A DNA stretch of 64,000 nucleotides from Verrucomicrobiota bacterium. GTDB taxonomy: Bacteria > Verrucomicrobiota > Verrucomicrobiia > Limisphaerales > AAA164-E04. The notes under the pieces were generated by a model that saw only the letters and a list, made by a program, of their open reading frames with translations, was not told the origin of the DNA and did no database searches. The DNA is taken from positions 5,728,001 through 5,792,000 of the forward strand of contig CP170459.1 of NCBI GenBank assembly GCA_047947115.1. Reading direction: 5' to 3'. Of the stretch, positions 5,944 to 48,054 are shown one piece after another. Position numbers and translations under genes: made by a program. Every line of letters begins with the position of its first letter. The stretch's first letter is position 1.

Positions 5944-5946
5944 CGG

Positions 5947-6270: not shown

Positions 6271-6672
6271 ATTACACACTTAACAATTCTCGAAACATCG
6301 AAAAAACTCTCGTTACCCCAAAACTACCAAGCCCCCCCCTCATCCACAACAAGTTTCACTGACGGACCACCCATGATACGCCTGATCCAGTACCCTCTCC
6401 AATCCCTAAACGAATCAATGCCAATATTCACACAAGACTTCAATGAGATACCCATGTCATCTTCAATTCGTTACAGACGACAAAAATCAAGTAATCTGCG
6501 AACATCTGCGGTGAACCAAAACACAACCAATCGAAGACCAAAAAGCACTCACCTCCCACACGATTTACCTTGGCGAATGGTGAACTTGAATTAAAGTGAC
6601 GCCATTCCACTAGGTCAGCCATTTCAATGAACTTGAATTGCACTAAACACCCGTAAAGGAATTTTAAATAAT

Positions 6673-8238: not shown

Positions 8239-8261
8239 TTTGAGAACAATCTAATCAAACC

Positions 8262-8293
8262 AAAAAGGCGCATCTTCGGATGCGCCTTTTTTT
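8262..8293. terminator. Bidirectional intrinsic terminator
   Basis: AAAAAGGCGCATC-TTCG-GATGCGCCTTTTTTT between convergent genes. Confidence 0.88.
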
Positions 8294-8487
8294 ATAAGTC
8301 CTGATTAAAACGACTGAGCACTCAAATGACAGAAACCGGATCATAGGTCGGGCGCAATGCCTGCTCTGCCCGGCTCAGGAAAATTTGGACAGGATAGGAC
8401 AAGGTCACACCATTTCCAACCGCGCCCCCCCCTGACATCGTTCATCCCAAACTCCCTTTAATCATCGCTTCAGCACAGCACAAATCT

Positions 8488-9459: not shown

Positions 9460-9514
9460 TTTTATCGGTATGAAATTTTAAGGATTCATGACAGGTTCCG
9501 GCCGGCTTCGAGGA

Positions 9515-10282: not shown

Positions 10283-10411
10283 CAGTTCGCTTTCTTCCCT
10301 GTCCTGGTAATAAAAAACCTTGATCCAGCCAAGGTCTAAAACTAACACTTTGCGACATGCAGAATCATCATTTGAATCCAATCAAGATCTGGCGCACAGT
10401 CTCCCCGTGAC

Positions 10412-11275: not shown

Positions 11276-11355
11276 TTCTCCAGGTATTTTTGCCTTTCGT
11301 GGAACCCCGGAATGACCTATCTTTCCGGTCGAATTCCAGAACATACAATCGAAAC

Positions 11356-28595: not shown

Positions 28596-29522
28596 TCAAC
28601 AGATTGGCTTGATGGGAAAACCGTTCAGGTGCTTATTTTGGATAGAAGCCACGCAAAGGTGCAAAAACGATTCCTCCATGGCATCCAAAGCATTTTGCTT
28701 TCGATGCACCACACCCCACCGCCTGCGCAGCACCTCCGATCCGGACGGGAAACACAACAATTGTCCAGAGTCAATTTCGCTTTTGGCCACCCAAGCCGGC
28801 ATCAAACCGATCCCCTGCCCAAGTTTTACAAAGGCCTTGATCGCTTCCATGCTCCCCATAAACGTGACGGATCGGGGTGAAAAATTCTTTTGTTTGAAAA
28901 AGGTTTCCACCAAACGACAGGTGTAACTCCCCTGATCGAAAATAACAAACCGCTGACGACGAACCGCTTCATCACCCAACTCTGGAGAAGCTTCCCACCG
29001 CAGCAAAGGGGACACAATCCAGGATAATTCGTCGGAAAAAACGGGTTGAAATTCGAGTTGAGATTCATTTTCAGGTTCCAGACTAAAAGCAATATCCACA
29101 TCACCTCGACGCAACGCTGTCATGATGACGGGGGCGTTGCCTGTAAGGATGCTGATAGTGCAGTGGGGATAACACTCGTTGAGTTCTCGTAAAACTTCTG
29201 GAATAAAACATACGGAAGCGGAAACACTGGCACCAATCGAAAACCGGCTTCGCCCCCACTTTCCTGCCTCACTGACGGCCTGCCGGGCCTCCTTCATCAA
29301 GCTCTCAATTTGTTGAGCATGCTCCAACAAACTGACCGCGGCATCTGTCAATACCATGCGTTTTCCCACCTTCTTGAACAACGTACAGGCAAGATCCTCC
29401 TCCAAATCTTTGATGGAGTGGCTGATGGTGGACTGAACTGTGTTTAAACTCCGAGCCGCATCCGTATAACTTTCGCAATGAGCCACCGTCAAAAAAACCT
29501 TTAACTTACGACTATCAATCAT
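28596..29522 (-). CDS. LysR family transcriptional regulator
   Basis: SYTDAARSLNTVQSTISHSIKDLEEDL..LF HTH, LT.A, substrate-binding domain; divergent from the nitrate operon. Confidence 0.94.
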   Translation of the reverse strand: MIDSRKLKVFLTVAHCESYTDAARSLNTVQSTISHSIKDLEEDLACTLFKKVGKRMVLTDAAVSLLEHAQQIESLMKEARQAVSEAGKWGRSRFSIGASVSASVCFIPEVLRELNECYPHCTISILTGNAPVIMTALRRGDVDIAFSLEPENESQLEFQPVFSDELSWIVSPLLRWEASPELGDEAVRRQRFVIFDQGSYTCRLVETFFKQKNFSPRSVTFMGSMEAIKAFVKLGQGIGLMPAWVAKSEIDSGQLLCFPSGSEVLRRRWGVVHRKQNALDAMEESFLHLCVASIQNKHLNGFPIKPIC

Positions 29523-29929: not shown

Positions 29930-31012
29930 ATGGACCTCCTCATCAAAAAATCTTCACAAAGCATGATTCGGATAGGCTTCGTACCGCTCAATGATGCCGC
30001 ACCCTTTCTGATGGCCCAGGAACTGGACTTGTTCGGGGATTATGGTCTGAACGTTCAACTCAGCCGAGAGCTGGGCTGGGCTTCCATTCGGGACAAAGTG
30101 GCTACGGGTGAGTTGACCGCTGCTCAATCGATACTGGGGCTTCCCATGGCCATGTTTTCTCCTGAAAGTCCGTCTTCCTCCCAACCGTTTATTGCCCCCC
30201 TCATCACCAGTCTACAAGGCAACGCAATCACCATCGCCAAACATTTTCGAGATGAAGGATACCAAACACCTCGCTCAATAATGCATTGGCATCGCGACAA
30301 AGGCACTGCACGGCCACTGACTTTCGCCATCGTATCACGATACTCAAGCCATCACATACTGATAAGGCAGTGGCTGAAAAGTGATGGCATCGATCCCGAT
30401 ACGGATGTCAATCTGGTCGTCCTGCCTCCACCACAAATGGTTCACCACCTGAAAGCAGGCCATATTGATGGCTATTGCGTTGGAGAACCATGGAATTCGA
30501 TCGGCATCATGGCTGGGAGCGGCTTTTGCGTGGCGACCAGTGCGGAAATTTCACCTTATCACCCGGAAAAATTACTCATGATTTCCAGGCAATTTGCCGA
30601 ATCGAACAAAGACCAATGTGTCAGACTCGTCGCCGCAGTGTTGGAGGCTTGCAGACTGTGCAACCAGCCATCTTCATTGGACATGATGAGCCGGGTATTG
30701 GCACGCCATGATTATTTGAATCTATCACCTGACATCCTACAGGATACCCTTACCGGAACAATTATCCGCCAAAACAATTCCAAATTGGATACTTCCAGGG
30801 ATTTCATCGTGTTCAGCGGAGAAAGGGTCAATGTGCCCTGCTCCCGAAAACGCAATTGGATTGGAAAGCATTTAACCGAGATCGGATTGCTGAAATTGCC
30901 AGAGTCATCCAAAGCTTCGTTACTCAATACCATTTATTCCGAAAAACTTTATCAGTCTGCCACGGCACTAACGGAAGCATCCGCCATCCCCCCTCAACCG
31001 TCTGCAGCGTGA
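29930..31012 (+). CDS. Cytoplasmic NrtA/CmpA-like protein (NasS-like nitrate sensor)
   Basis: [38 protein letters not shown]; no signal peptide. Confidence 0.82.
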   Translation: MDLLIKKSSQSMIRIGFVPLNDAAPFLMAQELDLFGDYGLNVQLSRELGWASIRDKVATGELTAAQSILGLPMAMFSPESPSSSQPFIAPLITSLQGNAITIAKHFRDEGYQTPRSIMHWHRDKGTARPLTFAIVSRYSSHHILIRQWLKSDGIDPDTDVNLVVLPPPQMVHHLKAGHIDGYCVGEPWNSIGIMAGSGFCVATSAEISPYHPEKLLMISRQFAESNKDQCVRLVAAVLEACRLCNQPSSLDMMSRVLARHDYLNLSPDILQDTLTGTIIRQNNSKLDTSRDFIVFSGERVNVPCSRKRNWIGKHLTEIGLLKLPESSKASLLNTIYSEKLYQSATALTEASAIPPQPSAA

Positions 31013-31079
31013 ATTTGCCCTGATGCGTTTTAAACAAAACGAGGAAGGGTTTGTGAACCCATAAAGCGAAAGAAAACAC

Positions 31080-32549
31080 ATGACATCCATACAATATATC
31101 ACCACACATTCCAATAGAGTGCGCAAAAAGCACAAAAAGGGGCGACTGTATACATTATCAATCATCTACATTGCATGTCTCGGCATGCTCGGGGGCATCA
31201 CCCATAAGGTCCACGGAGAACTGCTGGATGTGGAAAAAGATGAACTCACTTTCGGTTTCATCAAGCTCACCGACTGCGCCCCTTTGGTCATTGCCAAAGA
31301 AAAATTGTTCTTCGAGGAAGAAGGCTTGGATGTCAAATTGGAAGCCCAGGCGAATTGGAAAATCCTTCTGGACCGTGTGATCAGTGGGGAACTGGATGGC
31401 GCGCACATGCTGGCAGGCCAGCCCATCGGCGCCACCATCGGATTCGGCACACAAGCTCATATCATCACTCCATACAGTCTTGATTACAATGGAAATGGCA
31501 TCACTGTTTCCAACGAATTGTGGGAACGAATGCAGTCAAATGATGAAGCCCTGAAGTCCCCCACCCCCAAGCACCCCATCACGGCAGACTCGCTGAAACC
31601 TGAGGTGGAAGCTCGCAAGACCAAAGGAGACACCATGCGCATGGGGATGGTGTTTCCAGTCTCAACACACAACTATGAAATCCGGTACTGGCTTGCAGCT
31701 GCAGGAATTCGTCCTGGCTATTATCTGGATATCGCGTCGGGAGCCATTGATACCACCGGCACAACGGATGCGGATGTGCTGCTATCAGTGACACCTCCCC
31801 CGCAAATGCCGGCAACGCTGGAAGCGAAAACAATCGACGGATACTGTGTAGGCGAGCCATGGAACCAACAAGCCGTCGCGCGCGGAATAGGTGTACCCGT
31901 CACCACCAATTATGACATTTGGAAAAACAACCCGGAAAAGGTCTTTGGCGTAACCAGTCAATGGGCCAAGGAGAATCCGAACACCATCATTGCGATTACC
32001 AAGGCACTGATACGAGCAGGCATGTGGCTTGATGAACAGGATTCAAGTGGAGTTTACAAAAACCGTCATGAAGCTGCGCGCATACTCTCACGTCCGGAAT
32101 ATGTCGGTGCGGATTATGCCGTCATTAAGAACAGCATGACGGGATACTTCTATTTCCAATCCACAGACAAACGCCCCATGCCGGACTTCAACGTCTTCTT
32201 CAATCATCACGCGAGTTACCCATGGTACAGCGACTGTGTATGGTTCCTCACCCAGATGCGACGTTGGGGCCAAATTCCACAATCCAAATCAGCAAGTTGG
32301 TATCACGAGACGGCAAAAAAAATCTACCGCCCGGATATCTACATGGCTGCAGCAAAACACTTGATGGAGGAGGACTACATGAAAAAGGAACAACTTCCCG
32401 CCATCGACGAAGATGATACCTGGGCAGGGTATCGTCCCCCCACGAACGATTTCATTGATGGCAATCATTACGATGCCCGCAAACCCATCGAATACATCAA
32501 CAGCTTCAAAATCGGCATCAAGGAAGAAATCCAATTGAGCAAGCAGTAA
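31080..32549 (+). CDS. nrtA: Nitrate/nitrite ABC transporter substrate-binding protein
   Basis: [51 protein letters not shown]; signal peptide. Confidence 0.9.
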
Positions 32550-32632
32550 CGCATTCAACTGCACAAGGCCAGCTACCCGAACTTGGACAAAAAATTACCA
32601 GAGCACACACACGCAAAAACCAACAAGAATTC

Positions 32633-34243
32633 ATGAAAGACGAAGCATTTTATCGTTGGATCACGTTCCTGAAAAAAATCCGTTTCGGGTGGCTGGCCCC
32701 TTTTTTCCTCCTGCTAAAAGGAGAAGACGCCAAAACACAATGCAAAGCCATATTCAGCGGAGTCATGATGCCCATTTTTTCCATTCTGCTATTCCTGTGG
32801 ATATGGGATCTTGCCTCAAAAGAGATTGTCACCAAATTCGGTACCGTCCCGGGACCACGACAGGTTTGGTCCGCCTGGAAATCTCTCGGCAATGAAACAA
32901 GACTCGAACGGATCAAGGCATTGGAACACCAGCATCGTGCCAGAGAAAAAAGAATTGTCAGCGCGAAAAAATACAAAGAGGTTTTGAATGATTTTCCGGG
33001 AGAAATGCCAACAGGATTGCTCTCGCCCGGAACAGAAGACGCTCTGTCTACCTCCTCGGACGCCTTCCAGCAGGCAAACGAACTGCTCGAGGTGTACAAC
33101 AAGATTTCCATCACCCTTTCAAAGGAAGAAGCCCAATCAGTTGCCGCTTTATTCCAGTACGAAACCAGCAGACAATACGCCGAAAAGGTGATCCAACAAG
33201 CACTGCCTCTAGAAATTCGCCACAGGGAAAGAGTGGAGGCATTGAGAATGGCTCCTGAATGGAATCCTTCTCCCGATGATCCCGACAAGGTGGTCGAATC
33301 AAAGTCGGCCTTGAAAAAATCGGAATCTAAAAAACTGGCCAGAGAAAAAGCTATTCTTCTGATCGAAAGACAAAGGTACGCCACCGAAGCAACGAAAGCC
33401 GCATACGCTTTGATCACTTCGCTGCCCAAGAGTGTTCGAACACTGCTGGCACAAAGCGACAAATCCGCATCCAAACTCTACCCGGAACTCAAGGCCTGGC
33501 ATGAAAATCTGCTGGCAGAAGAAGCGGCCACAGGTGTCAAATACGCGGGAAAGGTGAAACTTAAAATGCTTCTCAAAGCATTCGAATACAAACCCTATCC
33601 GGGCAAAGACACCTATTTCGCGCAAATAGCCACGAGCCTGAAAACGGTGTTTTTCGGATTCTGCATTGCTTCATTGATTGCCATCCCCATCGGCATCATC
33701 TGTGGTTTGAGCCCCAACATGAACAATGCCATCAACCCACTGATTCAAATCTTCAAACCCGTTTCTCCTCTGGCCTGGCTGCCCATCGTGATGATCCTGG
33801 TCGGAGCACTGTATGTTTCGGATGATCCCATGTTTGAATTGTCTTTCTTGAATTCGGCGATCACCGTCGCTCTCTGTTCGCTTTGGCCGACTTTGGTCAA
33901 CACTTCCCTGGGAGTGTCCTCGACCGATAAAGATATCATGAACGTGGCCAAGGTCCTGAAATTGGGATGGTACAAGAAAGTCACCAAGGTCATCATCCCC
34001 TCCGCCATGCCCCTCATTTTCACCGGACTTCGATTATCTCTGGGAGTGGGCTGGATGGTACTGATCGCAGCTGAGATGTTGGCACAAAACCCTGGACTGG
34101 GAAAGTTTGTTTGGGACATGTTCCAAAACGGATCCAGTGAGACACTGTCCATGATCATGGTCGCCGTCTTCACGATTGGCATCATTGGATTCATGCTCGA
34201 TACCATCATGCTGAGCCTGCAGGAACTGGTCAGCTTTGATTAA
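32633..34243 (+). CDS. nrtB: Nitrate ABC transporter permease with large soluble insertion
   Basis: [39 protein letters not shown]. Confidence 0.9.
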
Positions 34244-34262
34244 TCCACATGGGGCCAAAAAC

Positions 34263-35186
34263 ATGAAACCTCTCATTTCACTTGAAGGCGTGTCGAAAAG
34301 TTTCGGCTCTGGTCAACAAAAAACAAATGTCCTGAGCAACATTCAGCTCGAGATCAAGGAAGGTGAATTTGTCGCCATTGTCGGATATTCCGGCTCGGGT
34401 AAAACCACGTTGATCTCCATTTTGGCCGGGCTGATCCATCCCGACAAAGGAGTGGCAATGTATCGCGAGCACCCCATCAGGGAACCCGATCCCGGACGCG
34501 CCTTGGTTTTCCAAAACTATTCACTGCTGCCTTGGCTGAGTGTATGGGACAACCTCGCCCTGGCGGTGAATCAGGTCTTCCCCCATTGGTCCACATCAAA
34601 ACGCGAAGAACACATGAACCATTACCTCGACATGGTTCGATTGACACCGGCCAAACGCAAAAGACCGTCGGAACTTTCAGGTGGCATGCGACAAAGGGTG
34701 GCACTGGCACGCGCCCTGGCCATAGATCCGGAAGTATTGTTGTTGGACGAACCACTGGGAGCCCTGGATGCTTTGACCCGTGGAAATCTTCAAGAGGAAA
34801 TTGCAAGGATCTGGTCTGAAAACAAAAAGACGGTGGTTCTGATCACCAACGATGTGGATGAAGGCATTCTACTGGCAGATCGGGTCATCCCTCTGACTCG
34901 AGGACCGGAAGCCACACTGGGGCAACCCATCCATATCAATCTCCCCAGACCTCGCAACCGCAAGGAACTCAATCATGACGCATCTTTTAAAGATTTCCGC
35001 AAACGAATCATCGAGTCCCTGATGCACGAAGGACGTCAACCATCTACCACCACGGTGCGAAGGACGTTCGTTCTTCCCAACATTCTACCGGAAGACCTGA
35101 ACGCACCGGGCACGTTCCGGTTCGGCAGAAGATCACCGGTGCGTCATGAGGAATTCAAACAGGAACCCCTGGAAATAGAAATATGA
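34263..35186 (+). CDS. nrtC: Nitrate ABC transporter ATP-binding subunit 1
   Basis: [30 protein letters not shown]-loop reads TND. Confidence 0.88.
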
Positions 35187-36115
35187 ATCCTTTCTGTATC
35201 TTATCACAACTCACCAAAAGCTATCCTACCCCAAAAGGGGATGCGGTCATCGTCAAGGATTTCAATCTCAAAATCAAAAAGGGGGAATTTGTTACCTTGA
35301 TTGGTCATTCAGGTTGCGGGAAATCCACCGTCCTGTCGATGCTGGCGGGACTCAATCCCATCACATCCGGTGGCATCATCCTCGCCGGCAAGGAACTGAG
35401 CGGTCCCGGCCCGGATCGCGGTGTGGTGTTTCAATCCCCCAGCTTGCTACCCTGGCTGAGCGCACTGGACAATGTCCTTTTGGGTGTCAATCAAGCTTTC
35501 TATACCGCCAGCCGGCTCGAACGCAAACAAATCGCCGAATACTACCTCGCCATCGTCGGCCTGGCGAATGCCATGCATAAAAAACCCGCAGAACTCTCAC
35601 AAGGCATGTGCCAGCGCGTCGGTATCGCCCGCGCATTTGCATTGTCTCCACGCATGTTGCTGCTGGATGAACCTTTTGGCATGCTCGACGCTTTAACACG
35701 CTTTGAATTGCAGGAAATACTACTGCGACTCTGGTCCAAAAACCAGATCACCGCCCTCATGGTCACACATGATGTGGATGAGGCGCTGTTTCTCTCTGAT
35801 CGAATCGTCATGATGACAAACGGACCGGAAGCCGAGGTCGGGGACATCCTTCCTGTCCATTTTGAACGACCGAGGGACCGCGCTGGCATTCTTGCCCATC
35901 CCGATTACTATGATATGAGAGAGTACCTCATCACCTACTTGAGTGATCGTTCCCACATCAAGGGACAATACAAAGCCTCTGTGGAAAACCAGGGATTTGA
36001 TTTCGCAGCTTTAAAGGATCAAGACGAAAAGTGCACCCCACTCGTCATGGAAGGAAAACACATCGCGGAAAGACGCAACCGTCCCGTGCTGGAGGATACA
36101 ACCAAACTGAACTGA
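35183..36115 (+). CDS. nrtD: Nitrate ABC transporter ATP-binding subunit 2
   Basis: [30 protein letters not shown]. Confidence 0.88.
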
Positions 36116-36152
36116 TCAACTCTCCGCCCCTCCCGATAGATACGTCACCTAC

Positions 36153-37742
36153 ATGGAGCAGCCCCACACATTGATTGATCTGAACAGGGCCAACGATGCA
36201 TCAGCTGTCGAGATTTTCGCCCGCCAGCAAGATGCCGCCTCCCAATGGTCAAGGGACAAGACGACTGGCACCTACCGCTCATTGATTCCAACCCAGTTAC
36301 CGGCTCCCGGGGAGCAATATGCTTTTGAGGTTAATCTGGATAAGTGCTCGGCCTGCAAATCCTGTGTCAGCGCATGCCACCACATGAATGGATTAAGTGA
36401 TGAGGAATCATGGAGAAGAGTCCATCAATGGTTCGGAGAAAATCAGGGTGAGCAATGGGTACAGACCGTCACCAGTGCATGCCATCACTGTGTGAATCCT
36501 GAATGCATGCATGGATGCCCCGTCGGCGCCTATGAAAAACACCCCATCACCGGCATCGTAAAGCACCTCGACGACCAATGCATAGGGTGCGAGTATTGCA
36601 TCTGGAAGTGCCCTTACGAAGTGCCGCGCTACCACGAGTCCTACGGCATCGTGCGCAAGTGCGACATGTGTTCGGAAAGATTGAGCAACCAGTTGGAGCC
36701 GGCCTGCGTGCAAGCCTGCCCTCATGACGCCATACAAATTAAAATCGCAGATCAGGAAAAACTGACACACAACGCCAAACCGAGGATGTCAGGTAAAAGA
36801 CTTTACCCCGGGGCACCCGATTCTTCCATCACTACCCCGTCTTCCACCTATTATTCCAAAAGGTCACTTCGAAAAACCCGATGGAGCAAAGCCGATTCCC
36901 ATCCTCCACAAAATAAACCCCACTGGCCATTGGTATGGATGTTGATTCTGACCCAATGGGGTGTGGGAATACTTACCTCGCATTTCATCCGGACTGCCGC
37001 ATCAGAAAGCATTCAAACCCCTCTTTATGGAACAGCTTTTTGGATGGGTACTTTGCTCATTTTTACTGGACTGCTGTGCAGCTTTTTCCACCTGGGACAA
37101 CCAACCAAGTCCTGGCGCTTTTTCCTTGGCCTGAAAACTTCCTGGTTAAGCAGGGAAATTTTGATGTTCAACACGTTGGCAGCCTGTCTGTGCATCGCAT
37201 CTCTGGATGCATTGGTGAACATCATTCCGGTTCATTTCAAAACATCAATCGCGATCACTATTGTCCTGTGCGGGTGGTTGAGTGTGTTCACTTCGGCAAT
37301 GATTTACCACGACACTCAGCGCCCGGAATGGTCGATCCATCGAACCGGATCACAATTCATGGAGTCCCTATTATCGGGAGTACTTGCCTGCAGCTTTATC
37401 GCCTCCTTCATCAACAACAATACCAACTCCAAACTGCCGCTCTATACCACGTTTGTGATCACGCTATTCATGTTACTCACCAAATCCATCAAGATAACCT
37501 CCACGAGAAATGCTGCCAATCATCAAGGATCTCATCGTTTGAAGGGAGTTTTGATCGGTTCGGCAATGCTCCTGTTTGTCTTTGCCGTGGGAACCATCCA
37601 TCAGATGCCTTGGTTAACAGGGACTGCCGCAGGGCTCTCAACAGGATGTTTGTTCCTGCTGGATCTGGTTGGCAGACGAGATTTTTTTCTTCAAACCAAA
37701 TCACCCATGACGAAACCCCTTGAAGAAGGAAACAACTCATGA
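36153..37742 (+). CDS. Fused 4x[4Fe-4S] DmsB-like domain + DmsC-like membrane anchor
   Basis: [37 protein letters not shown]...PACVQACP; then HWPLV...TQ, HLG.P, SWLSREI and about eight TM helices. Confidence 0.88.
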
Positions 37743-39949
37743 AACTTCCCCCATTTCTGGAGCGTGTCTTTAAAAGCAAATCGGGGCGATTAACGGATAA
37801 ATTGCGGCTGAAACAGAATCGGCAACTTGGTTTGATCCCCGCCCGATACGATTCGAACAACATCCAGAAGTCCATCTGCGGTTACTGTTCCACCGGCTGC
37901 CAACTCGACATCCACACGAAATCAAGCAGACCGGTTTTACTCACTCCGGACACAAACCATCCAGTCAACCTTGGAATGGCGTGCCCCAAGGGCTGGGAAG
38001 CTTTGGAACCTTTGAATGCACCCGATCGAGGTCGCGTGCCTCTCATACGTGATGTCGATCACACCTTTAGGCAAGCAGAATGGCCGGAGGCATTGGATTA
38101 CTTTTGTCAACGTTTCAAAGAAATACAAAATCAACATGGCAACGAATCAGTTGCATTTCTGGGTACAGGACAAATAACGAATGAAGAGCTGGCTTTAATG
38201 GGAGCACTTGCCAAGTTTGGCATGGGATGGGTGCATGGCGACGGGAACACCCGCCAATGCATGGCTTCTGCAGTAACGGCTTATAAGGAATCCTTTGGAT
38301 TTGATGCCCCTCCCTATACCTACGCGGACCTGGAGCTATCGGACACTCTTATTTTCATCGGAGCAAACCCCTGTATCGCCCATCCCATTTTATGGCATCG
38401 AGTCATGCGTAATCCGCATCGTCCAAAAATAATCGTGATTGATCCACGCGCCACGGAGACAACGGCAGCTGCAACCACACACCTGGCCATACGCCCGAAA
38501 TCTGATCTGACTTTGTTGTATGCCATAGCCAGTATCCTGATTCAGAATGACTGGATCGACCACTCCTACATTGACCAGCACACCGAGTTATTCGATGCAT
38601 TTGCGAGGTTTGTGAAGAGCTATTCCATTGATCGAGCAGTTGATGCAACCGGGTTGCCGGCATCCTCTGTCATGGAACTTGCAAGCAAAATTCACGAAGG
38701 AAAGGCGGTTTCATTCTGGTGGACCATGGGAGTCAACCAAAGTTACCAGGGAACGCGCACCGCCCAGGCGATCATCAATCTTGCCTTGATGACCGGCAAT
38801 ATCGGCCGACCAGGAACGGGGGCCAATTCCATCACGGGTCAATGCAATGCCATGGGCTCACGATTATTCAGCAATACAACCTCGCTGTTTTGCGGGCGGG
38901 ATTTTGAGAACCCCGCTGATCGTGAGGACATCGGAAACCGGCTCAATATCCCCGTAGATCGCATCCCCAATAAGAAAAGTCTCCCCTACCACGAGATCAT
39001 GAAAGGGATTGAAAAGGGGGCCATCAAAGGACTGTGGATCGTCGCCACCAATCCCGGGCATTCCTGGATTGATCAATCCAGCTGGTTCAAAAGTATTCGA
39101 TCCAAGCTGGAATTCCTTGTGGTGCAGGATATGTATGAATCCACAGAAACGGCACAAGAAGCAGACCTCTTTCTACCGGCGGCGGGATGGGGTGAGAAAT
39201 CAGGCACCTTCATCAATTCAGAGCGCAGGTTTGGTGTGATTGAAAAAGTGCAAGATCCGGTCGGCGAAGCACGCAGTGACTTCGACATATTTAAAGACAT
39301 CGCCGATCACTGGGGTTGTGGTGAACTGTTTGAACATTGGAAAACGCCCGAGGACGTGTTCCAAATCCTGAAAACGCTTTCCATGCATACTCCCTGCGAT
39401 TTTTCAGGCATCAAGGATTACTCGATGCTGCAGAAGAACGGAGGCATCCAGTGGCCCCACATCCAAAACCAGCAAAATGGTGATCTGCCGGAAAAGGAGC
39501 GCAGGTTATTTGAAGATGGCCGTTTCCATCACCCTAACGGAAGGGCCCACTTTGTCTTTGAAGAAACCACCCCCAATCCTGAATCAGTTTGCCCGAATTT
39601 TCCGGTGTGGCTTCTGACAGGAAGGGGCACATCGGCACAATGGCATACGCAAACACGCACTGCAAAATCCAAGATGCTCAGACAAATGGCCCCAGGGAGT
39701 GTTTATGTAGACTTACATCCGGCGGATGCGCGCGAACTCGGAATAAAAACGAATGACTTGGTTGTGATCCGTTCAAGACGCGGATCGTTGGAAGCCCATG
39801 CCCGGGTTCAAGCAAGTGTCCAGCAAGGTCAAATCTTTATCTCAATGCATTACCCTGAGGTCAACCAACTGACTCATCCTTCGTTTGACCCCTATTCTCA
39901 TCAACCTTCCTACAAGGCATGCGCTGTAAGCCTGTCAAAAAGAACATGA
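37739..39949 (+). CDS. nasA: Molybdopterin nitrate reductase catalytic subunit (assimilatory NasA/NarB type)
   Basis: CGYCSTGC...CPKG, RQCMASA Mo-ligand Cys, [22 protein letters not shown]...QWHT.TRT; no Tat motif. Confidence 0.9.
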
Positions 39950-41748
39950 CAACACCCCCCCTTAAATCTCAATCCACCGGAAGCATTCCCTATATTCCAG
40001 CCCAAGCCCCCTTTTCACCCGAACAAAGGGCATGGCTGAACGGATACCTCGCGGGAATGTTTTCCAGAGCCATTCAAGACGGTCCTCAAGTTCAGCAGCC
40101 TGCATCAGAGCCGACACCCGGTGCAACCATCCATATCCTTTATGGAAGCCAAAGCGGAACGGCGGAAGGAATCGCAAAAGACCTTGCAAAACAGGCGAAG
40201 GTAAAAGGTTTTGAATCCGTTTTACTTGAACTCAATGACCATCAAAAAATGGATCGTGCTCAGGAACAAACGGCCTTGATCGTTACCAGCACATGGGGAG
40301 ATGGCGAACCACCGGACAATGCGGTCAAGTTCTGGAAAGACATCCAATCATCGGATGGAAGTGATTGGAAAAATGTATCTTATTCAGTGCTCGCTCTGGG
40401 TGACAGCAATTACGCCGAGTTCTGTGGGGCGGGGAAATGTTTTGACGAGCGTTTGCATGAATTGGGGGCCAAACGTCTACATGAACGCGTAGACTGCGAC
40501 GTGGATGAGGAAACGGCCGCACAAGAATGGACGCGGCGCATTTGGGAAATTCTTGAAGCCATACCCAGCGCAGCCCATTCGAACCCGGATGACCAAACAG
40601 CTGCCTCAGCAACAGTGCGAACAGCAAGCTCAACCAGCAAGCAACCAAAGGACAAAACCAAATATCATCGGAAACATCCGTTTCAAGCACGACTCATCCT
40701 TCAAAAAAAATTGAACCTTCCCGGTTCCGCCAAAGACACCCGGCATGTGGAAATCAGCTTGGACGGATCGGGTCTACAGTATCAGGCGGGAGACGCTCTC
40801 GGCATCTATCCGTCCAACGACCCTGATTTGGTGGAAGCACTTTTAGAACATTGCCAATTGAGCCATGGAGCAGAGGTTCAATCCAAGGACGGAAAACGAA
40901 AACCGATAAAGGAGGCCCTTACCTCGGATTGCCAAATCACAAAAATCAGCCAACGGTTAGTGACAGAACTTGAAAGTTTAAAAGGATTCCCCCCCTTGAG
41001 TGCCGCCTTCAAGTTGCGCGAAGGGATGGATTTATTGGATGTGATTCCTCTGGGAGCTGAATTGGATAAACAGGCTTTCGTGGATCTGCTGCCCAGGTTG
41101 CAACCTAGACTTTACTCGATTGCCAGCAGTCCACTGGTTCATCCCGATGCTGTTCACCTAACAGTCGGAGTTGTCCGATATGAAATGAATGAACGCATGC
41201 GTCATGGTATTTGTTCCACGTTTCTTGCGGATCGTTTATCTCCTTCCGACAAGATGCCGGTCTTTATTCATCCTTCTGCCTTCAAACTTCCAGAACAAAC
41301 AGATCAATCCATCATCATGGTTGGCCCCGGAACCGGAATCGCACCATTCAGAGGATTCCTTCAGGAGCGAAAGATCAACGGTGGATCAGGAAAGAACTGG
41401 CTGTTCTTTGGCGATCAAAAAGCATCCACCGATTTTCTCTATCAGGAGGAATTGAAAGCATTTCAATCCGAAGGCGTGCTCCATCGATTCCATACAGCTT
41501 TCTCGAGAGATCAGGTCCAGAAAGTCTATGTCCAGGACCGTATGAAAGAGCAGGCTTCCGAACTGTGGAAATGGATAGAAGGAGGCGCGGCATTTTATGT
41601 GTGTGGAGATGCCAGACGGATGGCAAAAGACGTTGATCAGACACTCTTCGAGATCATCATGAAGGAGGGAGGGATGTCAAGGGACCAAGCCTCCGCCTAC
41701 GTGGAACAAATGAAAAAGGAGAAACGGTATCAGCGCGATGTATATTGA
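39946..41748 (+). CDS. CysJ-like NADPH diflavin reductase (FMN/FAD)
   Basis: [54 protein letters not shown] overlaps the nasA stop (ATGA). Confidence 0.9.
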
Positions 41749-41785
41749 TCCACCACTCCATGCACTCGTTCAAAACAACCACCCT

Positions 41786-43555
41786 ATGAAACCTATCTTC
41801 GAAAAAATTGCAGGAACTGACATCAACGCAGAACAAACTTCCTATCTCGACGGTTTTTTTAACGGACTGGCACAACAGGGCGTCCGCTTTACCGACATGG
41901 AACCGGACCCGACCGTGTCACATGCTGCTTCACAGGATACCGACTCATTCTGCAAAGAAGAAAAGCTGAAACACAAAACCGACCTCAACAAAACCTACCA
42001 ACTGGTCGATAAGGTTTCATCATCCGTAACCGATCCGGATCCTGAAGAAACTTTCCTCTTGAAATGGCATGGTCTTTTTCACCTCGCCCCCAAACAGGAC
42101 GGATTCATGTGTCGTTTAAGGATACCCGGAGGATATGTTCGAGATTATCAACTGCGTGAACTGGCTCACATTTCGCGGGACAGAACTACCGGGTACATCC
42201 AACTGACCACAAGAGCCAATTTCCAGCTGCGTGTTATCCCGTTAAAACATGCTTCAGAAGTCCTGCAGCGGATACAATCCGTCGGTTTGCATTCCAAAGG
42301 TGCCGGAGCTGATAATGTGCGAAACATCACAGCATCTCCATGCGCCGGTCTTGATCCGCTGGAATTGATCGATGTCAAACCCATCTGCCAGCAACTGGCC
42401 CAACTTATCATCAATACGGACGAATTTTACAATCTTCCCAGAAAATTCAACATTGCATTGGATGGAGGGGGCGCTGTCGGCCTTGTCGAAGACACCAATG
42501 ATATCGGAGCCAAAGCAGTCCGCATCGAGGATTCCATCGCAGGCGTTCCACCGGGAGTTTACTTCCTGATCGCCCTTGGAGGCGTGACGGGTCACAAGAC
42601 CTTTGCCAATGACGCGGGAATTCTCATTTCAAAAGACGAACTTGTGGAAGTCATCCTCAACATGGTCCGTGTGTTTATTGAAAACGGAAACCGATCTTCC
42701 AGAAAGAAAGCACGTCTCAAATACCTCCTGGAGGACTGGGGATTTGAAAGATTCCTCGCCGAAGTAGACACCAAACAATCTAAACCGTTGACGCGCCTGA
42801 CTAGGGAGAACATGGAACAAATCAAATCCTGGAATCCACCCCGCGAATCAACATCCACGCACCCACAATTGGGTATCCATCCACAAAAACAAAAGGATCT
42901 CAACTATGTGGGAGTCGGGATTCCGACGGGAGTCCTAACCCCGGATCAGTTGGAAAGCCTGGCCACACTATGCGGGAAGTATGGAAACGGTGAAGCCAGG
43001 CTAACCGTCTGGCAAAATCTCATCATTCCCAATGTGGCATCCGATCAACTCGAACCCCTGAAAAAGGAAATTCTGGATTTGGGACTCTATGTCGATGCTT
43101 CCCCCATTCGAAGCGGTGTCATCGCCTGTACCGGAAACGCATACTGCAAATTTGCAGGAGCAAACACCAAGGCGCACGCCAAACTGCTGATGGATCACCT
43201 CGAAAGATCGTGTGGATTGGATCAGCCCATCAATATTCACATCACAGGATGCCCCCACTCCTGCGCACAGCATTACATTGGAGACATAGGTTTGCTGGCC
43301 ACACAGGTGAAGAGCGGTGACAAGGTGGAAGAAGGTTATCATGTTTTTGTTGGAGGTGGATTTGGTGAACACCGGGAGATTGGTCGGCAAATTGCCAAAG
43401 CAGTCAATATGGAATCACTTCCAGGCATGCTTGAGGCACTCTTCAACGAATACCTTGCTTCCCGGTGGCCAAACGAAAGCTTCCAGGAATTCACTTTGAG
43501 ACATCCGGTTGAGGCACTTCAGTCCTTCTTGGGCGATCCCAAGATTCATCCGTGA
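41786..43555 (+). CDS. nirA: Siroheme nitrite reductase (NirA family)
   Basis: LTTRANFQLR, ADNVRN, LPRKFN, CTGNAYC and GCPHSC ligands. Confidence 0.9.
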   Translation: MKPIFEKIAGTDINAEQTSYLDGFFNGLAQQGVRFTDMEPDPTVSHAASQDTDSFCKEEKLKHKTDLNKTYQLVDKVSSSVTDPDPEETFLLKWHGLFHLAPKQDGFMCRLRIPGGYVRDYQLRELAHISRDRTTGYIQLTTRANFQLRVIPLKHASEVLQRIQSVGLHSKGAGADNVRNITASPCAGLDPLELIDVKPICQQLAQLIINTDEFYNLPRKFNIALDGGGAVGLVEDTNDIGAKAVRIEDSIAGVPPGVYFLIALGGVTGHKTFANDAGILISKDELVEVILNMVRVFIENGNRSSRKKARLKYLLEDWGFERFLAEVDTKQSKPLTRLTRENMEQIKSWNPPRESTSTHPQLGIHPQKQKDLNYVGVGIPTGVLTPDQLESLATLCGKYGNGEARLTVWQNLIIPNVASDQLEPLKKEILDLGLYVDASPIRSGVIACTGNAYCKFAGANTKAHAKLLMDHLERSCGLDQPINIHITGCPHSCAQHYIGDIGLLATQVKSGDKVEEGYHVFVGGGFGEHREIGRQIAKAVNMESLPGMLEALFNEYLASRWPNESFQEFTLRHPVEALQSFLGDPKIHP

Positions 43556-43749: not shown

Positions 43750-44147
43750 ATGGCCAGACCCAAGTCCAACACCCTTACTGATTCCGAACACCGCATTATG
43801 GAGGTCCTGTGGGACCAGGGTGAGTCGACGGTTGCGGATGTGGCGGACACCCTGGAGGGGAAACCCGGTTCCGCCTACAACACGGTCCTGACCATGATGC
43901 GCATTCTCCATGAAAAAGGATATTTGAAATGCCGCAAAGAGGGACGTGCTCATTTTTACAAACCTATCGTCAATCGCCATACCGCCGCAAGACATGCCGT
44001 TAAGCAATTGCTTGGAAAATTTTCAACGACTCTCCGAGTCAATTGGTGTTGAGTTTTCTGAAAGATGAAGATCTGAGCAAAGAAGATTTGAATGAATTGA
44101 CCAAGCGCATCAAAGCCTCGCCGGATCAACCCAGGAAAAAGTCATGA
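43750..44147 (+). pseudogene. BlaI/MecI/CopY family repressor with 1-nt frameshift
   Basis: LTDSEHRIMEVLW...AYNTVLTMMRIL.EKG; adding one T to the T-run at 44020-44023 restores FFNDSPSQLVLSFLKDEDLSKEDL, ending at a TGA that overlaps the next ATG. Confidence 0.85.
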
Positions 44148-44817
44148 ATATCCTGTGGAGTCAGTATGCCGACACGATTCTTTCCGCCTTGATAAACGGA
44201 GTTATGCAAGGGCTGGTACTTTGTGGGATGATCTGGACCGTGCTTAGGATTTCCCGAAAATTGAACGCATCAACCCGTTACCTGATCTGGCTCAGCACAT
44301 TGGTTGCAGTTTGCCTGTTGCCATGCACCCATTTCCTATTGGCGAGGACCGGCGTGGGCCAGAACGTTCAGAAGGACACTTCCGAACGTTCCACGCCGGT
44401 CCATTCGTCGACATCCTCCAAACCACCACAATCTGCTGAGACCATTTTCCACACGCCCCGTTCAGACCTGCCCGGCATCCCTGAACCACTGGAGCCGGAA
44501 CATTACTCCGTGATCACTTCAAGAGGAGAACAACCGATCACAGCCTCTTTTGAGTCAGAAAACCCCATGGACGCTTTGTTCCTGGCCGATGTCGTTTCCG
44601 AGGGTTCAAACGAGGCATTGAACGAAACAAGTCCAATTTCCAAACAAGCACCATCTGCGCAAACAAACCAAACGGAAATCCAACAATGGTTTCCTGTCCA
44701 ATCCATCACCTTTCAAACGCTTTGGCCACCTTTCCTCAGCTTGGGAATACTGGTTACCCTCTTGCTGATCACCCTTTTCAAAGGGTCACGGCTGGTACGG
44801 GACCTTTTCTTGCTTAA

Positions 44818-46300
44818 CAGCCCGTTAAAAAAGTCACAATTCTTCACGAAAAGATTCGTGATTGATCACATGATCAAGTAAAGTATTTGCCATGGCACTT
44901 GGCAAACGGAAAACGAAACAGCAAGAACTGTTCATTGCCTCCAATCAGATTCCCAAAACGCCGGCTCACCCGTTTTATTCCAAACTCAATCAGGTTTTTG
45001 ATGAGTGCGGATTTGATGCTTATGTCGAAGAGTTGTGCGCCCCGTTTTACAAGAATTTTGGTAGGCCAGGCATTGCGCCCGGTATTTATTTCCGGATGAT
45101 TTTCATCGGATACTTTGAAGGGCTCAACAGTCAACGTGGTATCGCATGGAGATGTCATGATAGCCTTTGCCTGCGTGAATTTCTCGGCATCAGTTTGACA
45201 GAGAAAACTCCTGTTCACGCATCGATGACAATTATCCGTCAACGCTTGTCCGATGAAGTGTTTCACAAGGTTTTCCTTTTTGTCCTTGAACAACTCAAAG
45301 AGAAAAAGCTTTTGAAGGGAAAAACTCTTGGTGTTGATGCCACCACCCTGGAAGCCAATGCAGCCATGCGTAGCATCGTGCGCAAAGGGACGGGTGAGGA
45401 TTGGAAAGAATACCTTCGTGAACTGGCCAAAGAAGAAGGCATTGAAAATCCGAGTGATGAAGACATTCAGCGCATCGACCGAGGGCGCAAGGGGAAGAAA
45501 GTTTCCAACAAAGAATGGCAAAGCAAGTCAGATCCGGACAGCCGCATTACCAAGATGAAAGATGGGCGCACACATCTTGCATATAAGGCTGAACATTCGG
45601 TGGACTTGGAAACCGAGGCAATTGTTTCTTGTCATGTCACACATGCAGATCAAGGCGATACAACCACGGGGCCTGAGAGCCTCATCTTGGCTGAAGCCAA
45701 TCTACAATTAATCGAATCAGAAAGGACCGTTGAAGAGGCGGTGATGGACAAGGGATATCACAGCAACGCATTGTTGGAACGGCTCACGCAGTGGGGTATC
45801 CGCACATACATACCAGAGAAGAAGCAAAAGAAGCGTAAGTGGGTGGACAAGCCGGAAAGCTACGAACACGCATTCCGTGGTAATCGACGAAGAGTTCGGA
45901 GTGTCAAGGGTAAGCGACTGAGTCGAAAACGAAGCGAACTTGTGGAGCGAACATTTGCTCATGTGTGCGAAACAGGAGCTGGACGTCGAACCTGGCTCCA
46001 GGGAATGGAAAATGTCACCAAGATTCACACACTGAAGTGCGCAGCATTCAACCTCGGATTGCTGATGCGGAAAATCTTTGGCCTCGCCAAGCCAAGAAAC
46101 TGGGAAGCGAGCCTCGCTACCGCTTTGACGGCTGCTTTTGTCATAATTTTTGGCGAATGGATGACTCAGGGGGCGATAAATATGGCTCCCGCCGTCCTTT
46201 TACTGATTTCCACCATTTTATTATGCAGCTTGATGAAATCGAAGCCGGACGAGATTCGGATCATTCGGTTTTTCGAAATTGGCACTTATTAAACGGGCTG
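44818..46300 (+). mobile_element. Insertion sequence, 1483 bp (IS1182/IS5-like), TTAA target duplication
   Basis: IRL CAGCCCGTTAAAAAAGT vs IRR (revcomp) CAGCCCGTTTAATAAGT, 15/17 match; TTAA at 44814-44817 and 46301-46304. Confidence 0.93.
44892..46292 (+). CDS. DDE transposase (DUF772-type N-terminus; IS1182/IS5-like)
   Basis: GRP, REFLG, VDAT..EANA, DPD, YK.E..VD, DKGY, R...VE..F motifs. Confidence 0.92.
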   Translation: MALGKRKTKQQELFIASNQIPKTPAHPFYSKLNQVFDECGFDAYVEELCAPFYKNFGRPGIAPGIYFRMIFIGYFEGLNSQRGIAWRCHDSLCLREFLGISLTEKTPVHASMTIIRQRLSDEVFHKVFLFVLEQLKEKKLLKGKTLGVDATTLEANAAMRSIVRKGTGEDWKEYLRELAKEEGIENPSDEDIQRIDRGRKGKKVSNKEWQSKSDPDSRITKMKDGRTHLAYKAEHSVDLETEAIVSCHVTHADQGDTTTGPESLILAEANLQLIESERTVEEAVMDKGYHSNALLERLTQWGIRTYIPEKKQKKRKWVDKPESYEHAFRGNRRRVRSVKGKRLSRKRSELVERTFAHVCETGAGRRTWLQGMENVTKIHTLKCAAFNLGLLMRKIFGLAKPRNWEASLATALTAAFVIIFGEWMTQGAINMAPAVLLLISTILLCSLMKSKPDEIRIIRFFEIGTY

Positions 46301-48054
46301 TTAAGCGACTTAAAAAGGAATCAACAGCAACGACACCTGAGCTGGAACGATGGATCGTGCGTTTGAATTTCCATGAACGCGGCCAACGTCGCGTTCAGGT
46401 CAGAGTGCATGAAGCCATCAAAACACCCCTTGCACTTGGCTTTTTCAATCCAATGATCTTGCTGCCACAATCGCTGGCAGAAACCATGGAGGAGCAAAAA
46501 CTCTCCTGCATACTCCGACACGAATGGGCACATATCGTGCGGTATGATGACTGGACCAATTTCTTTCAGCGGCTTATGGAGGCGCTGTTCTTCTTCCATC
46601 CAGTGGTCGCCCTGATCGGGCGCCGTTTGGATATCGAACGGGAGATTGCCTGTGACGACCACGTTCTGGCCGATGGTTCGCAGGCGAAAGCATATGCACT
46701 GATGCTGACACAATTTGCCAATAGGGAGCGGGACCGTCATCTGGCGACGGCAACCGCAGGTTGGAACAAAAAACATCAAATCAAAGAAAGAATAGATATG
46801 TTACTCGATTATCATCGAAACACCGCTCCCCGTCCCGCCCGTGTTGGTGCCGGACTGTTTACCTTGGCCATCCTGGCAGCCGCCATCCTGGCCATGAACG
46901 TGAGTCCCAGACTCGCTTTCGCTCAATCCGAAAGCAGCTCGATCTCTCAAAATTCATCCTCTGCTGATGACCTTTTTGAAGCTCCCGTTGCCGAACCCCG
47001 ATCCAAAGACAATAGGAGAGTCCGAGTCCAGGGAACAATCCAGAACAACGCCGACGTCGAAGCTTCACCAAGGGAAAGCTCTATCTTCATGCAAAGAGAA
47101 GCTGAACCAACATTAGAGTCGAATGGTTCGGATTTACTGCTGACATCACCCGCAGGTGCTACCTTGAGGTTACCAGGATCGCCCACTGCCCCCACAGCTA
47201 TTAGTGTTCCTGTAGAGATAGCAATTCCCGAGTTTCCAGAGCCTGAGGTAATACCATCGCCTCAAACAAGCACTGGCGCCAGCGATGCCGCGCCCTCCCA
47301 AGCCTTCCCTGCTGCAGATCCTTATCATTTCCCACAGTTCCCTCATGATGAACAACTGGCAGCCCATGTCGAAGACGCCATCGCCCACGCCCACGAATGG
47401 CAAGCCTGGGCTGAACATCAACAAGCATCCGCCCAGCGCCTGCAAAATGATTCCGAACTGGAAAAAAGAATCAAAGCGCTGGAAAATCTAGTCCATCGAC
47501 TCGTAGAGGATAAAACAGCGCAAAGCGTGGGAAGAAGAGGAAGAAGCGTTCCTTCACAATACAATAACACCCCTGCCGAGGAGTCTATCCCTGGAAGAAC
47601 CTATCGGATATCGAACAACCCTTTTGCGTCTGTAGCTTCCGTTCCCCAGGCAGTTGACCATGCGGAAGAACTGACCGAACGAACCATCCGTCTGGCAAGA
47701 CAGGATGCGCGCCTCGTCAGACAGGACGCTTTACGCGGATTGGAGAAACTGAAGCAAGAGCAAGCCAAACTGGAAATGGAGCGTCAAAGGTTGACAGAGC
47801 AACTCCAATTGCTTGATCGAAGAGCACATTCATTGCTTCTCAAAATGTCTCAGGAAATGGCCGAAATCGAGTCCAGACAGACTCAAGGAAACGCCCCCTG
47901 AACCTCCCACGCATCCTGCTCATAGGACATTGAAATGGTAGTCAGATGAGCGGGAGTCACCCAATCAAACTTCACTGAATCCTCATAGAGATGAGGACAT
48001 GTCTTTCGGCATCGTGACACGTTGTCGTGAGGAAACCATTACCCACGACAACGT

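What the first reader, a model, noticed from the sequence alone, without database searches (positions are those of the whole stretch)
36153..39949. Assimilatory-type nitrate reductase coupled to a fused Fe-S/quinol membrane anchor
Seen: a single ORF fuses four [4Fe-4S] motifs (DmsB/NrfC-like) to an ~8-TM DmsC-like anchor. Its stop overlaps the start of a NasA/NarB-type Mo enzyme with no Tat motif and no C-terminal BFD-like Fe-S domain, all inside an Nrt-NirA operon. Known: characterised assimilatory nitrate reductases are soluble and use ferredoxin or NADH diaphorases, while DmsBC/NrfCD modules usually serve Tat-exported respiratory enzymes. Inference: a cytoplasm-facing, quinol-fed nitrate reductase with inverted anchor topology, linking N assimilation to the respiratory chain or acting as a redox sink. 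This is the best candidate for an undescribed system here.
Basis: partly seen in the sequence, partly recalled or inferred. Interest (0 to 1): 0.85.

Follow-up and report, generated by a model that had tools for sequence, protein, structure and literature searches.

The report
Membrane-anchored, quinol-fed assimilatory nitrate reductase
This nitrate-assimilation operon pairs a nitrate-reductase-like molybdenum enzyme with a fused iron-sulfur/membrane-anchor protein that is predicted to face the cytoplasm, which likely lets many Verrucomicrobia and Planctomycetes draw the electrons for nitrate assimilation from the membrane quinone pool rather than from NADH or ferredoxin.

Summary
Observation confirmed, with one omission: a CysJ-like diflavin gene follows the molybdoenzyme.

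The 529-aa protein fuses a DmsB-type 16-Cys domain to a predicted 8-helix DmsC-family anchor. The DmsC quinol-site His and Glu are invariant (101 of 101). Loop charges predict an inverted, cytoplasm-facing anchor (101 of 101), as in SoeC-like proteins and unlike E. coli DmsC. No Tat motif was found in 75 molybdoenzymes or 100 fusions.

The molybdoenzyme has nitrate-reductase active-site residues. Fusion and enzyme occur in the same 29 of 301 Verrucomicrobiota and 14 of 201 Planctomycetota genomes. A nitrate or nitrite gene lies nearby in 77 of 78 loci. The diflavin follows NirA instead: all 18 loci lacking this NirA lack it, yet keep fusion and enzyme.

Best reading (0.65): a cytoplasm-facing quinol:nitrate oxidoreductase serving assimilation. 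Inverted anchors are known (SoeABC). Coupling one to a NasA/NarB-clade enzyme was not found in 10 paper searches and contradicts a 2020 phylogeny. The scan noted this system before on other DNA (e1-4494360).

The parts
36153..37742 (+). Fusion protein (529 aa): conserved N-terminal helical arm, DmsB-type 4x[4Fe-4S] domain (aa ~55-200), linker, DmsC-family anchor of 8 predicted helices (aa ~257-513) with quinol-site His313 and Glu335; predicted to face the cytoplasm
37739..39949 (+). Mo-bisPGD enzyme (736 aa), NasA/NarB/NapA-type active site (Cys174-Met175, Met329, Arg375, Lys84, four FS0 Cys), ~45-aa conserved N-terminal arm, no Tat motif, no C-terminal BFD or diaphorase domain
39946..41748 (+). 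CysJ-like diflavin reductase (flavodoxin + FAD + NAD(P)H domains); the only PF00667 gene found in the genome; likely electron donor to NirA (longest ORF starts at 39919)
41738..43555 (+). NirA-family nitrite reductase (NF007126 above cut-off); shares an N-terminal 'EQ..(W/Y)L.G(Y/F)..G' motif with the diflavin
31080..36115 (+). nrtABCD-type nitrate/nitrite ABC transporter (31080-32549, 32633-34243, 34263-35186, 35183-36115)
29930..31012 (+). Second NMT1_2 protein without a signal peptide, likely a NasS/NasR-type nitrate sensor (label recalled)
28596..29522 (-). Divergent LysR-family regulator, present at 19 of 65 related loci with long flanks

Best explanation
The fusion protein and the molybdoenzyme likely form a two-subunit, cytoplasm-facing quinol:nitrate oxidoreductase that carries out the first step of nitrate assimilation. 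Proposed path: menaquinol is oxidised at the His313/Glu335 site near the cytoplasmic face of the 8-helix anchor. Electrons run through the four [4Fe-4S] clusters of the fused DmsB-like domain to the FS0 cluster and Mo centre of the catalytic subunit, which reduces imported nitrate to nitrite. Nitrite is then reduced to ammonium by NirA, fed by the CysJ-like NADPH diflavin, or by NirBD in Planctomycetes, Myxococcota and Acidobacteriota loci. Shown by sequence and calls: domain content, conserved cofactor and quinol-site residues, no export motif, charge asymmetry, co-occurrence. Inferred: physical complex, orientation, nitrate as substrate, quinol as donor, role of the diflavin.
For: (1) Topology: K+R in loops on the Fe-S side 12.9 vs 1.2 opposite, Fe-S side higher in 101 of 101; E. 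coli DmsC is reversed, 3 vs 6. With slightly wider loops: fusions 12.5 vs 1.7, SoeC-like proteins 13.2 vs 1.8 (24 of 24), other stand-alone anchors 5.5 vs 10.7 (3 of 12), E. coli DmsC 4 vs 8. (2) No Tat-like motif in 75 of 75 Mo N-termini or 100 of 100 fusions; a similar pattern flags E. coli NapA. (3) His313, Ser333, Glu335, Tyr385 and Arg508 align to DmsC His65, Ser85, Glu87, Tyr137 and Arg271 and are invariant in 101 of 101. His65 mutation blocks quinol oxidation (PMC8076601 passage); Glu87 matters for menaquinol binding (reference title seen). (4) Same 29 of 301 Verrucomicrobiota genomes carry fusion and Mo clade; same 12 + 2 of 201 Planctomycetota genomes. Mo gene directly downstream in 80 of 100 loci; elsewhere in the genome in 5 of 5 exceptions tested. 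(5) 77 of 78 loci with long flanks have nirA, nirB, nrt or narK nearby; all 18 lacking this nirA lack the diflavin but keep fusion and Mo enzyme. Two Verrucomicrobiota loci with nirA + diflavin, in genomes without a fusion match, use a different ~1,170-aa NasA; the one read in full carries its own flavoprotein and BFD-type extension. (6) Cys-Met active site and clade support with haloarchaeal NasA, apart from FdhF. (7) Two PF02621 menaquinone-pathway genes in the genome; nitrate/nitrite is +0.42 V (PMC12300631 table), menaquinone about -0.07 V (recalled).
Against: No biochemical or genetic data. No NCBIfam nitrate-reductase model reaches its cut-off, and the best score is Fdh-alpha (499.7 bits vs NasA_Halo 476.5); Foldseek ranks a formate dehydrogenase and NapA about equal. 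The diflavin is translationally coupled to the Mo gene in this window and full-length in 43 of 78 loci; NasN is a precedent for diflavin-fed nitrate reductase (PMC7816997). NirB-type proteins can also feed NasC (PMC6618116). In 20 of 100 loci the fusion is not directly upstream of the Mo gene; 17 have no Mo gene in the locus, most of these end the operon after nirA, and 12 of them were not checked genome-wide. Close relatives of the Mo enzyme exist without an adjacent fusion: Cetobacterium (43%, beside a small Fe-S protein and an FAD oxidoreductase) and one G071 copy (54%). Related genomes are not independent, so co-occurrence overstates.
Confidence: 0.65

Rival explanations
1. The Mo enzyme takes electrons from a soluble donor (the CysJ-like NADPH diflavin as a split NasN, or NirBD). 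The fusion is a membrane scaffold and Fe-S relay, or exchanges surplus electrons with the quinone pool.
For: Diflavin overlaps the Mo stop here and is full-length in 43 of 78 loci. NasN precedent (a NasN-type fusion is seen in L223). Paracoccus NasC draws on NADH with NasB/NasG.
Against: Diflavin absent in 18 of 18 loci lacking this nirA, absent within about 8 kb of 4 of 4 relocated Mo genes, and cut to the flavodoxin part beside nirA in 7 loci. Quinol-site residues are invariant, which a pure scaffold would not need.
Confidence: 0.15
2. The complex is quinol-fed but works mainly as a redox valve or low-yield nitrate respiration under low oxygen, with assimilation as a by-product.
For: Architecture is that of respiratory complex iron-sulfur molybdoenzymes. 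The nearest unanchored relative is in an anaerobic gut bacterium. A type-B cluster in G071 adds multihaem and globin-like genes and a second Mo enzyme.
Against: Context is assimilatory: ABC nitrate uptake, nirA or nirB, a NasS-like sensor. A cytoplasm-side quinol site would release protons where nitrate reduction consumes them (inference).
Confidence: 0.1
3. The Mo enzyme acts on another substrate, such as formate or another oxyanion, and only travels with nitrogen genes.
For: Best NCBIfam score is Fdh-alpha; top Foldseek hit is a formate dehydrogenase; the clade has an unusual 'NTRQCM' and '[11 protein letters not shown]' signature. M. smegmatis NarB was dispensable for nitrate use, so the label can mislead.
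Against: Cys-Met instead of Cys/Sec-His, conserved Met329 and Arg375, tree position, 77 of 78 loci with nitrate or nitrite genes. The genome's other three PF00384 genes look like FdhF, NuoG and an unrelated NifU-tailed protein.
Confidence: 0.06
4. The complex faces the periplasm like DmsABC, PsrABC or Nap, exported by a cryptic signal.
For: Closest solved anchor is periplasm-facing PsrC; closest solved catalytic subunit by sequence is NapA. No dedicated signal-peptide predictor was available.
Against: 0 of 75 and 0 of 100 Tat-like motifs; positive-inside bias in 101 of 101; no PF02613 chaperone found in the 95.8% complete genome (weak).
Confidence: 0.04

Closest known systems
SoeABC sulfite:quinone oxidoreductase (Allochromatium vinosum, Aquifex aeolicus)
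   Same: Tat-less Mo subunit, 4x[4Fe-4S] subunit and an 8-helix NrfD/DmsC-type anchor expected to be inverted, with His65/Glu87-type quinone site (PMC8076601 passages). SoeC-like proteins show the same charge bias as the fusion.
   Different: Here Fe-S subunit and anchor are one chain; the catalytic subunit is of the NasA/NarB/NapA clade, whereas the SoeA-like protein of L198 scores best to PhsA/DmsA models; electron flow would be quinol to substrate; context is nitrogen assimilation. Descent from SoeC is not shown: SoeC-like (80-105 bits) and other stand-alone anchors (70-104 bits) score alike against the fusion profile.
DmsABC (E. coli) and PsrABC (Thermus thermophilus)
   Same: DmsB Cys pattern, DmsC Pfam family, quinol-site residues, PsrC fold.
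   Different: Those are Tat-exported and periplasm-facing, with separate B and C subunits and a different catalytic clade; E. coli DmsC has the opposite charge bias.
Assimilatory nitrate reductases NasA/NasC/NarB and NasN
   Same: Cytoplasmic, Cys-Met Mo site, one FS0 cluster, operon with nitrate uptake and nitrite reductase genes.
   Different: Described as NADH-, NADPH-diflavin- or ferredoxin-fed (ferredoxin use recalled). Wells et al. 2020 state that no member of this clade is associated with the four-cluster or membrane-anchor subunits (PMC7331816 passage). Identity to annotated plasmid nitrate reductases is 33-36%; no NCBIfam cut-off is met.
Respiratory NarGHI
   Same: Cytoplasm-facing, quinol-fed nitrate reduction through a four-cluster subunit (PMC6618116).
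   Different: NarG is a different catalytic clade, NarI is a dihaem cytochrome b with a periplasm-side quinol site (PMC6303296 passage), and the role is anaerobic respiration. The system here would be a convergent solution without haem.

Membership tests
NasA/NarB/NapA-clade nitrate reductase | Cys Mo ligand followed by Met; FS0 CxxCxxxC...C with Lys; funnel Met and Arg | tested here: met
   C47/50/54/82, K84, C174-M175, M329, R375 invariant in 45 sequences and aligned to references
NasA/NarB/NapA-clade nitrate reductase | Groups with Nas/Nap enzymes, apart from FdhF | tested here: met
   FastTree on 31 of 46 collected sequences (near-duplicates dropped), rooted on FdhF: clade with haloarchaeal NasA 0.969; the node joining all Nas/Nap-type clades 0.823; few references
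NasA/NarB/NapA-clade nitrate reductase | Curated family cut-off (NasA_Halo, NasC, NapA) | tested here: not met
   476.5/1000, 437.5/1100, 343.9/904 bits
Classical soluble assimilatory nitrate reductase | C-terminal BFD [2Fe-2S] or fused diaphorase/diflavin domain | tested here: not met
   none in Pfam scan; 75 homologues end near the Mo-binding domain. NarB-type enzymes also lack it (recalled)
Classical soluble assimilatory nitrate reductase | In an operon with nitrate uptake and nitrite reductase genes | tested here: met
   77 of 78 loci
Classical soluble assimilatory nitrate reductase | Nitrate reduction, ammonium repression, soluble donor | not testable with these tools
   needs assays
DmsABC/PsrABC periplasmic complex iron-sulfur molybdoenzyme | Four-cluster subunit with 16 Cys | tested here: met
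   101 of 101
DmsABC/PsrABC periplasmic complex iron-sulfur molybdoenzyme | NrfD/DmsC-type 8-helix anchor with quinol-site residues | tested here: met
DmsABC/PsrABC periplasmic complex iron-sulfur molybdoenzyme | Tat signal on the catalytic subunit | tested here: not met
   0 of 75 by pattern
DmsABC/PsrABC periplasmic complex iron-sulfur molybdoenzyme | Quinone-site face in the periplasm | tested here: not met
   predicted by charge bias only
SoeABC | Inverted anchor with Tat-less Mo subunit | tested here: met
   predicted
SoeABC | SoeA-type catalytic subunit | tested here: not met
   different NCBIfam profile from the SoeA-like protein of L198; the SoeABC label for L198 is recalled, the record is unannotated
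SoeABC | Anchor descends from SoeC | tested here: inconclusive
   profile scores overlap with other DmsC-family anchors
NasN (diflavin-fused nitrate reductase) | Diflavin fused to or always with the Mo enzyme | tested here: not met
   separate gene; absent in 18 of 18 loci lacking this nirA
Any stable complex | Physical binding of fusion and Mo subunit | not tested

The most novel reading that the evidence does not exclude
This is a third way to power assimilatory nitrate reduction, from the quinone pool through an inverted DmsC-type anchor. It is the prevailing route among nitrate-assimilating Verrucomicrobia and common in Planctomycetes. Because quinol is made by proton-pumping complex I, the first step of nitrate assimilation would conserve energy instead of only costing it, and could double as a redox valve.
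Probability: 0.5. Interest if true: 0.8.

Novelty: new variant of a known kind. Interest (0 to 1): 0.64.

Why it matters
Textbook schemes separate soluble NAD(P)H- or ferredoxin-fed assimilatory nitrate reductases from quinol-fed respiratory ones. A published phylogeny says the NasA/NapA clade never uses the four-cluster and anchor subunits (PMC7331816). This system would break that rule in two abundant phyla: 29 of 301 Verrucomicrobiota and 14 of 201 Planctomycetota genomes searched, with further loci in Myxococcota and Acidobacteriota. Databases label the fusion as a DMSO reductase anchor or formate dehydrogenase subunit, so metagenome studies may misread it as anaerobic respiration. It is testable in cultured genera such as Luteolibacter and Haloferula, and a two-chain, Tat-independent complex is a simple model for studying NrfD-type anchors.

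Tried and rejected
VIA-align comparison of the fusion model was not available.

Natural fusion of the two proteins: the search of longer proteins gave 2 hits. P0179 has out-of-frame stretches and looks like an assembly artefact; P0180 comes from a eukaryote gene set and was not examined. Neither was used.

Hydrophobic-leader score separates poorly at the extremes (family maxima 1.55 and 2.06 vs controls 1.57 and 1.97), though the window proteins score 0.02 and 0.24.

RNA: 6 metatranscriptome runs hold the stretch, and 4 were laid. One contig spans 35963-38271 and another 39533-42766. These are contigs without strand or a DNA control, so transcription is not shown.

No sigma-54 motif in the four intergenic stretches scanned. 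The idea that the anchor is simply SoeC was tested and is inconclusive. A first tree run returned nothing and was redone with FastTree.

Paper searches found no description of this architecture. Methylacidiphilum papers describe NasA + NirBD with no anchor (passages). A Limisphaera paper lists NarB and NirA without the anchor in the passages seen (supplements not read). Three reviews or primary papers on assimilatory nitrate reductases were not held, and subscription journals are not searched.
Full report
What is in the window. The + strand from 29930 to 43555 holds a NasS-like gene, nrtABCD, the 529-aa fusion (36153-37742), a 736-aa molybdoenzyme (37739-39949), a CysJ-like diflavin (39946-41748) and a NirA-family nitrite reductase (41738-43555), with a divergent lysR. 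The fusion/Mo and Mo/diflavin junctions are both ATGA overlaps. The window lies in a 6.08 Mb single-contig genome whose close homologues are named as Verrucomicrobiota.

The fusion. Pfam finds 4Fe-4S dicluster domains and DmsC. All 16 Cys follow the DmsB pattern and are invariant in 101 of 101 sequences. AlphaFold gives 8 long helices in the C-terminal half, well modelled, while the Fe-S half is poor. Foldseek ranks PsrC first, then FdnH, ArrB and PsrB. Aligned to E. coli DmsC, His313, Ser333, Glu335, Tyr385 and Arg508 match His65, Ser85, Glu87, Tyr137 and Arg271, and all five are invariant. His65 is needed for quinol oxidation (PMC8076601, passages) and Glu87 for menaquinol binding (reference title in PMC6303296). 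The family is large: the protein search returned 7,956 hits among 7,999 scored candidates, which may include proteins matching only the Fe-S part.

Orientation. In DmsC and PsrC the N-terminus, the quinone site and the Fe-S subunit share one face, the periplasm. In the fusion that face carries 12.9 K+R against 1.2 on the other, higher in 101 of 101; E. coli DmsC gives 3 against 6. With more controls, 24 of 24 SoeC-like proteins and a Burkholderia SoeC-like protein behave like the fusion, while 9 of 12 other stand-alone anchors behave like DmsC (the SoeC label is mine, from recalled motifs and the Tat-less Mo/Fe-S/anchor order of L198). No Tat-like motif was found in 75 Mo N-termini or 100 fusions. 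An inverted anchor is therefore strongly predicted. It has precedent, since SoeC is described as inverted. Whether the fusion's anchor descends from SoeC is unresolved.

The molybdoenzyme. It has FS0 cysteines, Lys84, Cys174-Met175, Met329 and Arg375, the nitrate-reductase pattern rather than the Cys/Sec-His of FdhF. Its model is confident (pLDDT 88.5) and matches NapA and formate dehydrogenases about equally. No NCBIfam cut-off is reached and Fdh-alpha scores highest, so substrate rests on residues, tree and context. In a 31-sequence tree it sits in a clade with a Cetobacterium enzyme, a type-B group and haloarchaeal NasA, apart from proteobacterial NasA, NasN and NapA. A conserved ~45-aa N-terminal arm is present in 73 of 75 by pattern. 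It is absent from the two relatives that lack an adjacent fusion, Cetobacterium and one G071 copy, which makes it a candidate docking arm (inference).

Co-occurrence. Of 301 Verrucomicrobiota genomes, 30 matched the fusion; 29 are family members and one is an Fe-S-only hit. The same 29 carry the Mo clade at E <= 4e-214. One of them, G071, has a divergent type-B pair plus a separate armless copy. Of 201 genomes in the phylum of a Planctomycetaceae record, the same 12 carry type A of both and the same 2 carry type B. The Mo gene is directly downstream in 80 of 100 loci with enough flank (107 examined). Three exceptions have it further on in the locus; of the other 17, five were searched genome-wide and all five have it elsewhere at 56-58% identity. 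Of 117 loci, 78 had long flanks and 77 of these have nirA, nirB, nrt or narK nearby. These genomes are related, so the counts are not independent tests.

The rival donor. NasN shows that a diflavin can feed a nitrate reductase (PMC7816997, passages). Here the diflavin follows NirA. Among 58 nirA-only loci it is full-length in 43, partial in 8 and missing in 7; it is missing in all 11 nirB loci and all 7 loci with neither (two of these have a distant NirA below my 38% threshold), and those 18 keep fusion and Mo enzyme. NirB architecture was confirmed by Pfam at six loci. No diflavin lies within about 8 kb of four relocated Mo genes. Conversely, two genomes without a fusion match keep nirA + diflavin beside a different, ~1,170-aa NasA; the one read in full carries its own flavoprotein and BFD-type extension. 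The electron-input module of the nitrate step thus looks swappable, with the fusion as one option. The diflavin and NirA also share an N-terminal motif. The diflavin is the only PF00667 gene found in this genome and may also serve the sulfite reductase in the cys cluster.

Mechanism. Most likely menaquinol gives electrons at a cytoplasm-side site, through four clusters and FS0, to Mo and nitrate. The genome has two menaquinone-pathway genes and a NuoG-like gene beside a NuoH-like gene (identified by resemblance). Nitrate/nitrite at +0.42 V (PMC12300631, table passage) is far above menaquinone (about -0.07 V, recalled), so the step is downhill. NirA needs a low-potential donor (recalled), which fits the diflavin. 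The quinol step itself would be electroneutral unless the anchor channels protons; upstream complex I would still pump (inference).

Comparison with what is known. It works like SoeABC run in reverse, or like a haem-free NarGHI, but is a member of neither. Wells et al. 2020 state that the NasA/NasC, AioA, NapA clade is not associated with four-cluster or anchor subunits (PMC7331816, passages); their 2023 survey has no mention of these phyla in the main-text passages searched (PMC10100899; supplements not read). The NrfD-family review lists no nitrate-linked fused member in the passages seen. Paracoccus work contrasts quinol-fed Nar with NADH-fed Nas (PMC6618116, passages). Ten searches found no description, within a library that lacks most subscription journals. 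An earlier agent note on another genome reached the same reading (e1-4494360); I saw it after my own tests and count it as no support.

Verdict. A real, widespread, apparently undescribed combination of known parts. Quinol-fed assimilation 0.65; soluble donor with scaffold anchor 0.15; mainly redox valve 0.10; other substrate 0.06; periplasmic 0.04. New variant of a known kind, interest 0.64.

Noticed in passing
window 44144-47901: A BlaR1/M56-like gene after a BlaI-type repressor (43750-44052) appears split by an insertion sequence: transposase at 44892-46292 (DUF772 + DDE); RNA-run contigs have loose ends near 44815 and 46300, consistent with element ends.
   Followed up: partly
L187 (G168:C1) 5741-11811: A second architecture around a NasC-like Mo enzyme: membrane protein, Mo enzyme, stand-alone multi-cluster Fe-S protein, Rieske-type protein and NarK-like transporter. 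Another possible membrane-linked Nas-clade system.
   Followed up: partly
L057, L226, L227: Type-B version: fusion about 31-36% and Mo enzyme about 41-44% identical to the window's, with a different N-terminal arm and 'NTTLCM' site, beside NirB-like genes; in G071 also multihaem cytochrome and globin-like genes, a second Mo enzyme and a nifH-like gene.
   Followed up: partly
L228, L229, L230; proteins P0134, P0137, P0148: A separate family of DmsB-anchor fusions with the same cytoplasm-side charge bias (5 of 5 proteins); in L228 and L230 they follow an unrelated Mo enzyme with no leader before its first Cys motif and no nitrate genes were detected. Substrate unknown.
   Followed up: partly
L250 5883-9947 (-), G000:C1 about 770883-774947: A 1,354-aa protein: divergent molybdopterin oxidoreductase ('NSEHCLASA' site), a long unassigned middle part and a C-terminal NifU-like CxxC domain.
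   Followed up: no
L251 6151-7833 (-): CysI-like sulfite reductase in a cysI-H-C-D-N cluster without cysJ; the only diflavin gene found in the genome is the one in the nitrate operon.
   Followed up: partly
L068, L069, L072, L078, L091, L104, L112, L116, L130, L135, L137 and similar loci: In many Akkermansiaceae/Luteolibacter-type loci the diflavin is cut to its flavodoxin part between nirA and the fusion, and the Mo gene has often moved elsewhere. The fusion staying beside nirA there is unexplained.
   Followed up: partly
L199 7097-10855 (Cetobacterium somerae plasmid): The closest plasmid relative of the Mo enzyme (43%) has no N-terminal arm and sits with a 135-aa Fe-S protein and an FAD oxidoreductase, a soluble version of the same clade.
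   Followed up: partly
window 32633-34243: NrtB is 536 aa, with a long hydrophilic insertion before the permease domain, shared by some related loci.
   Followed up: no
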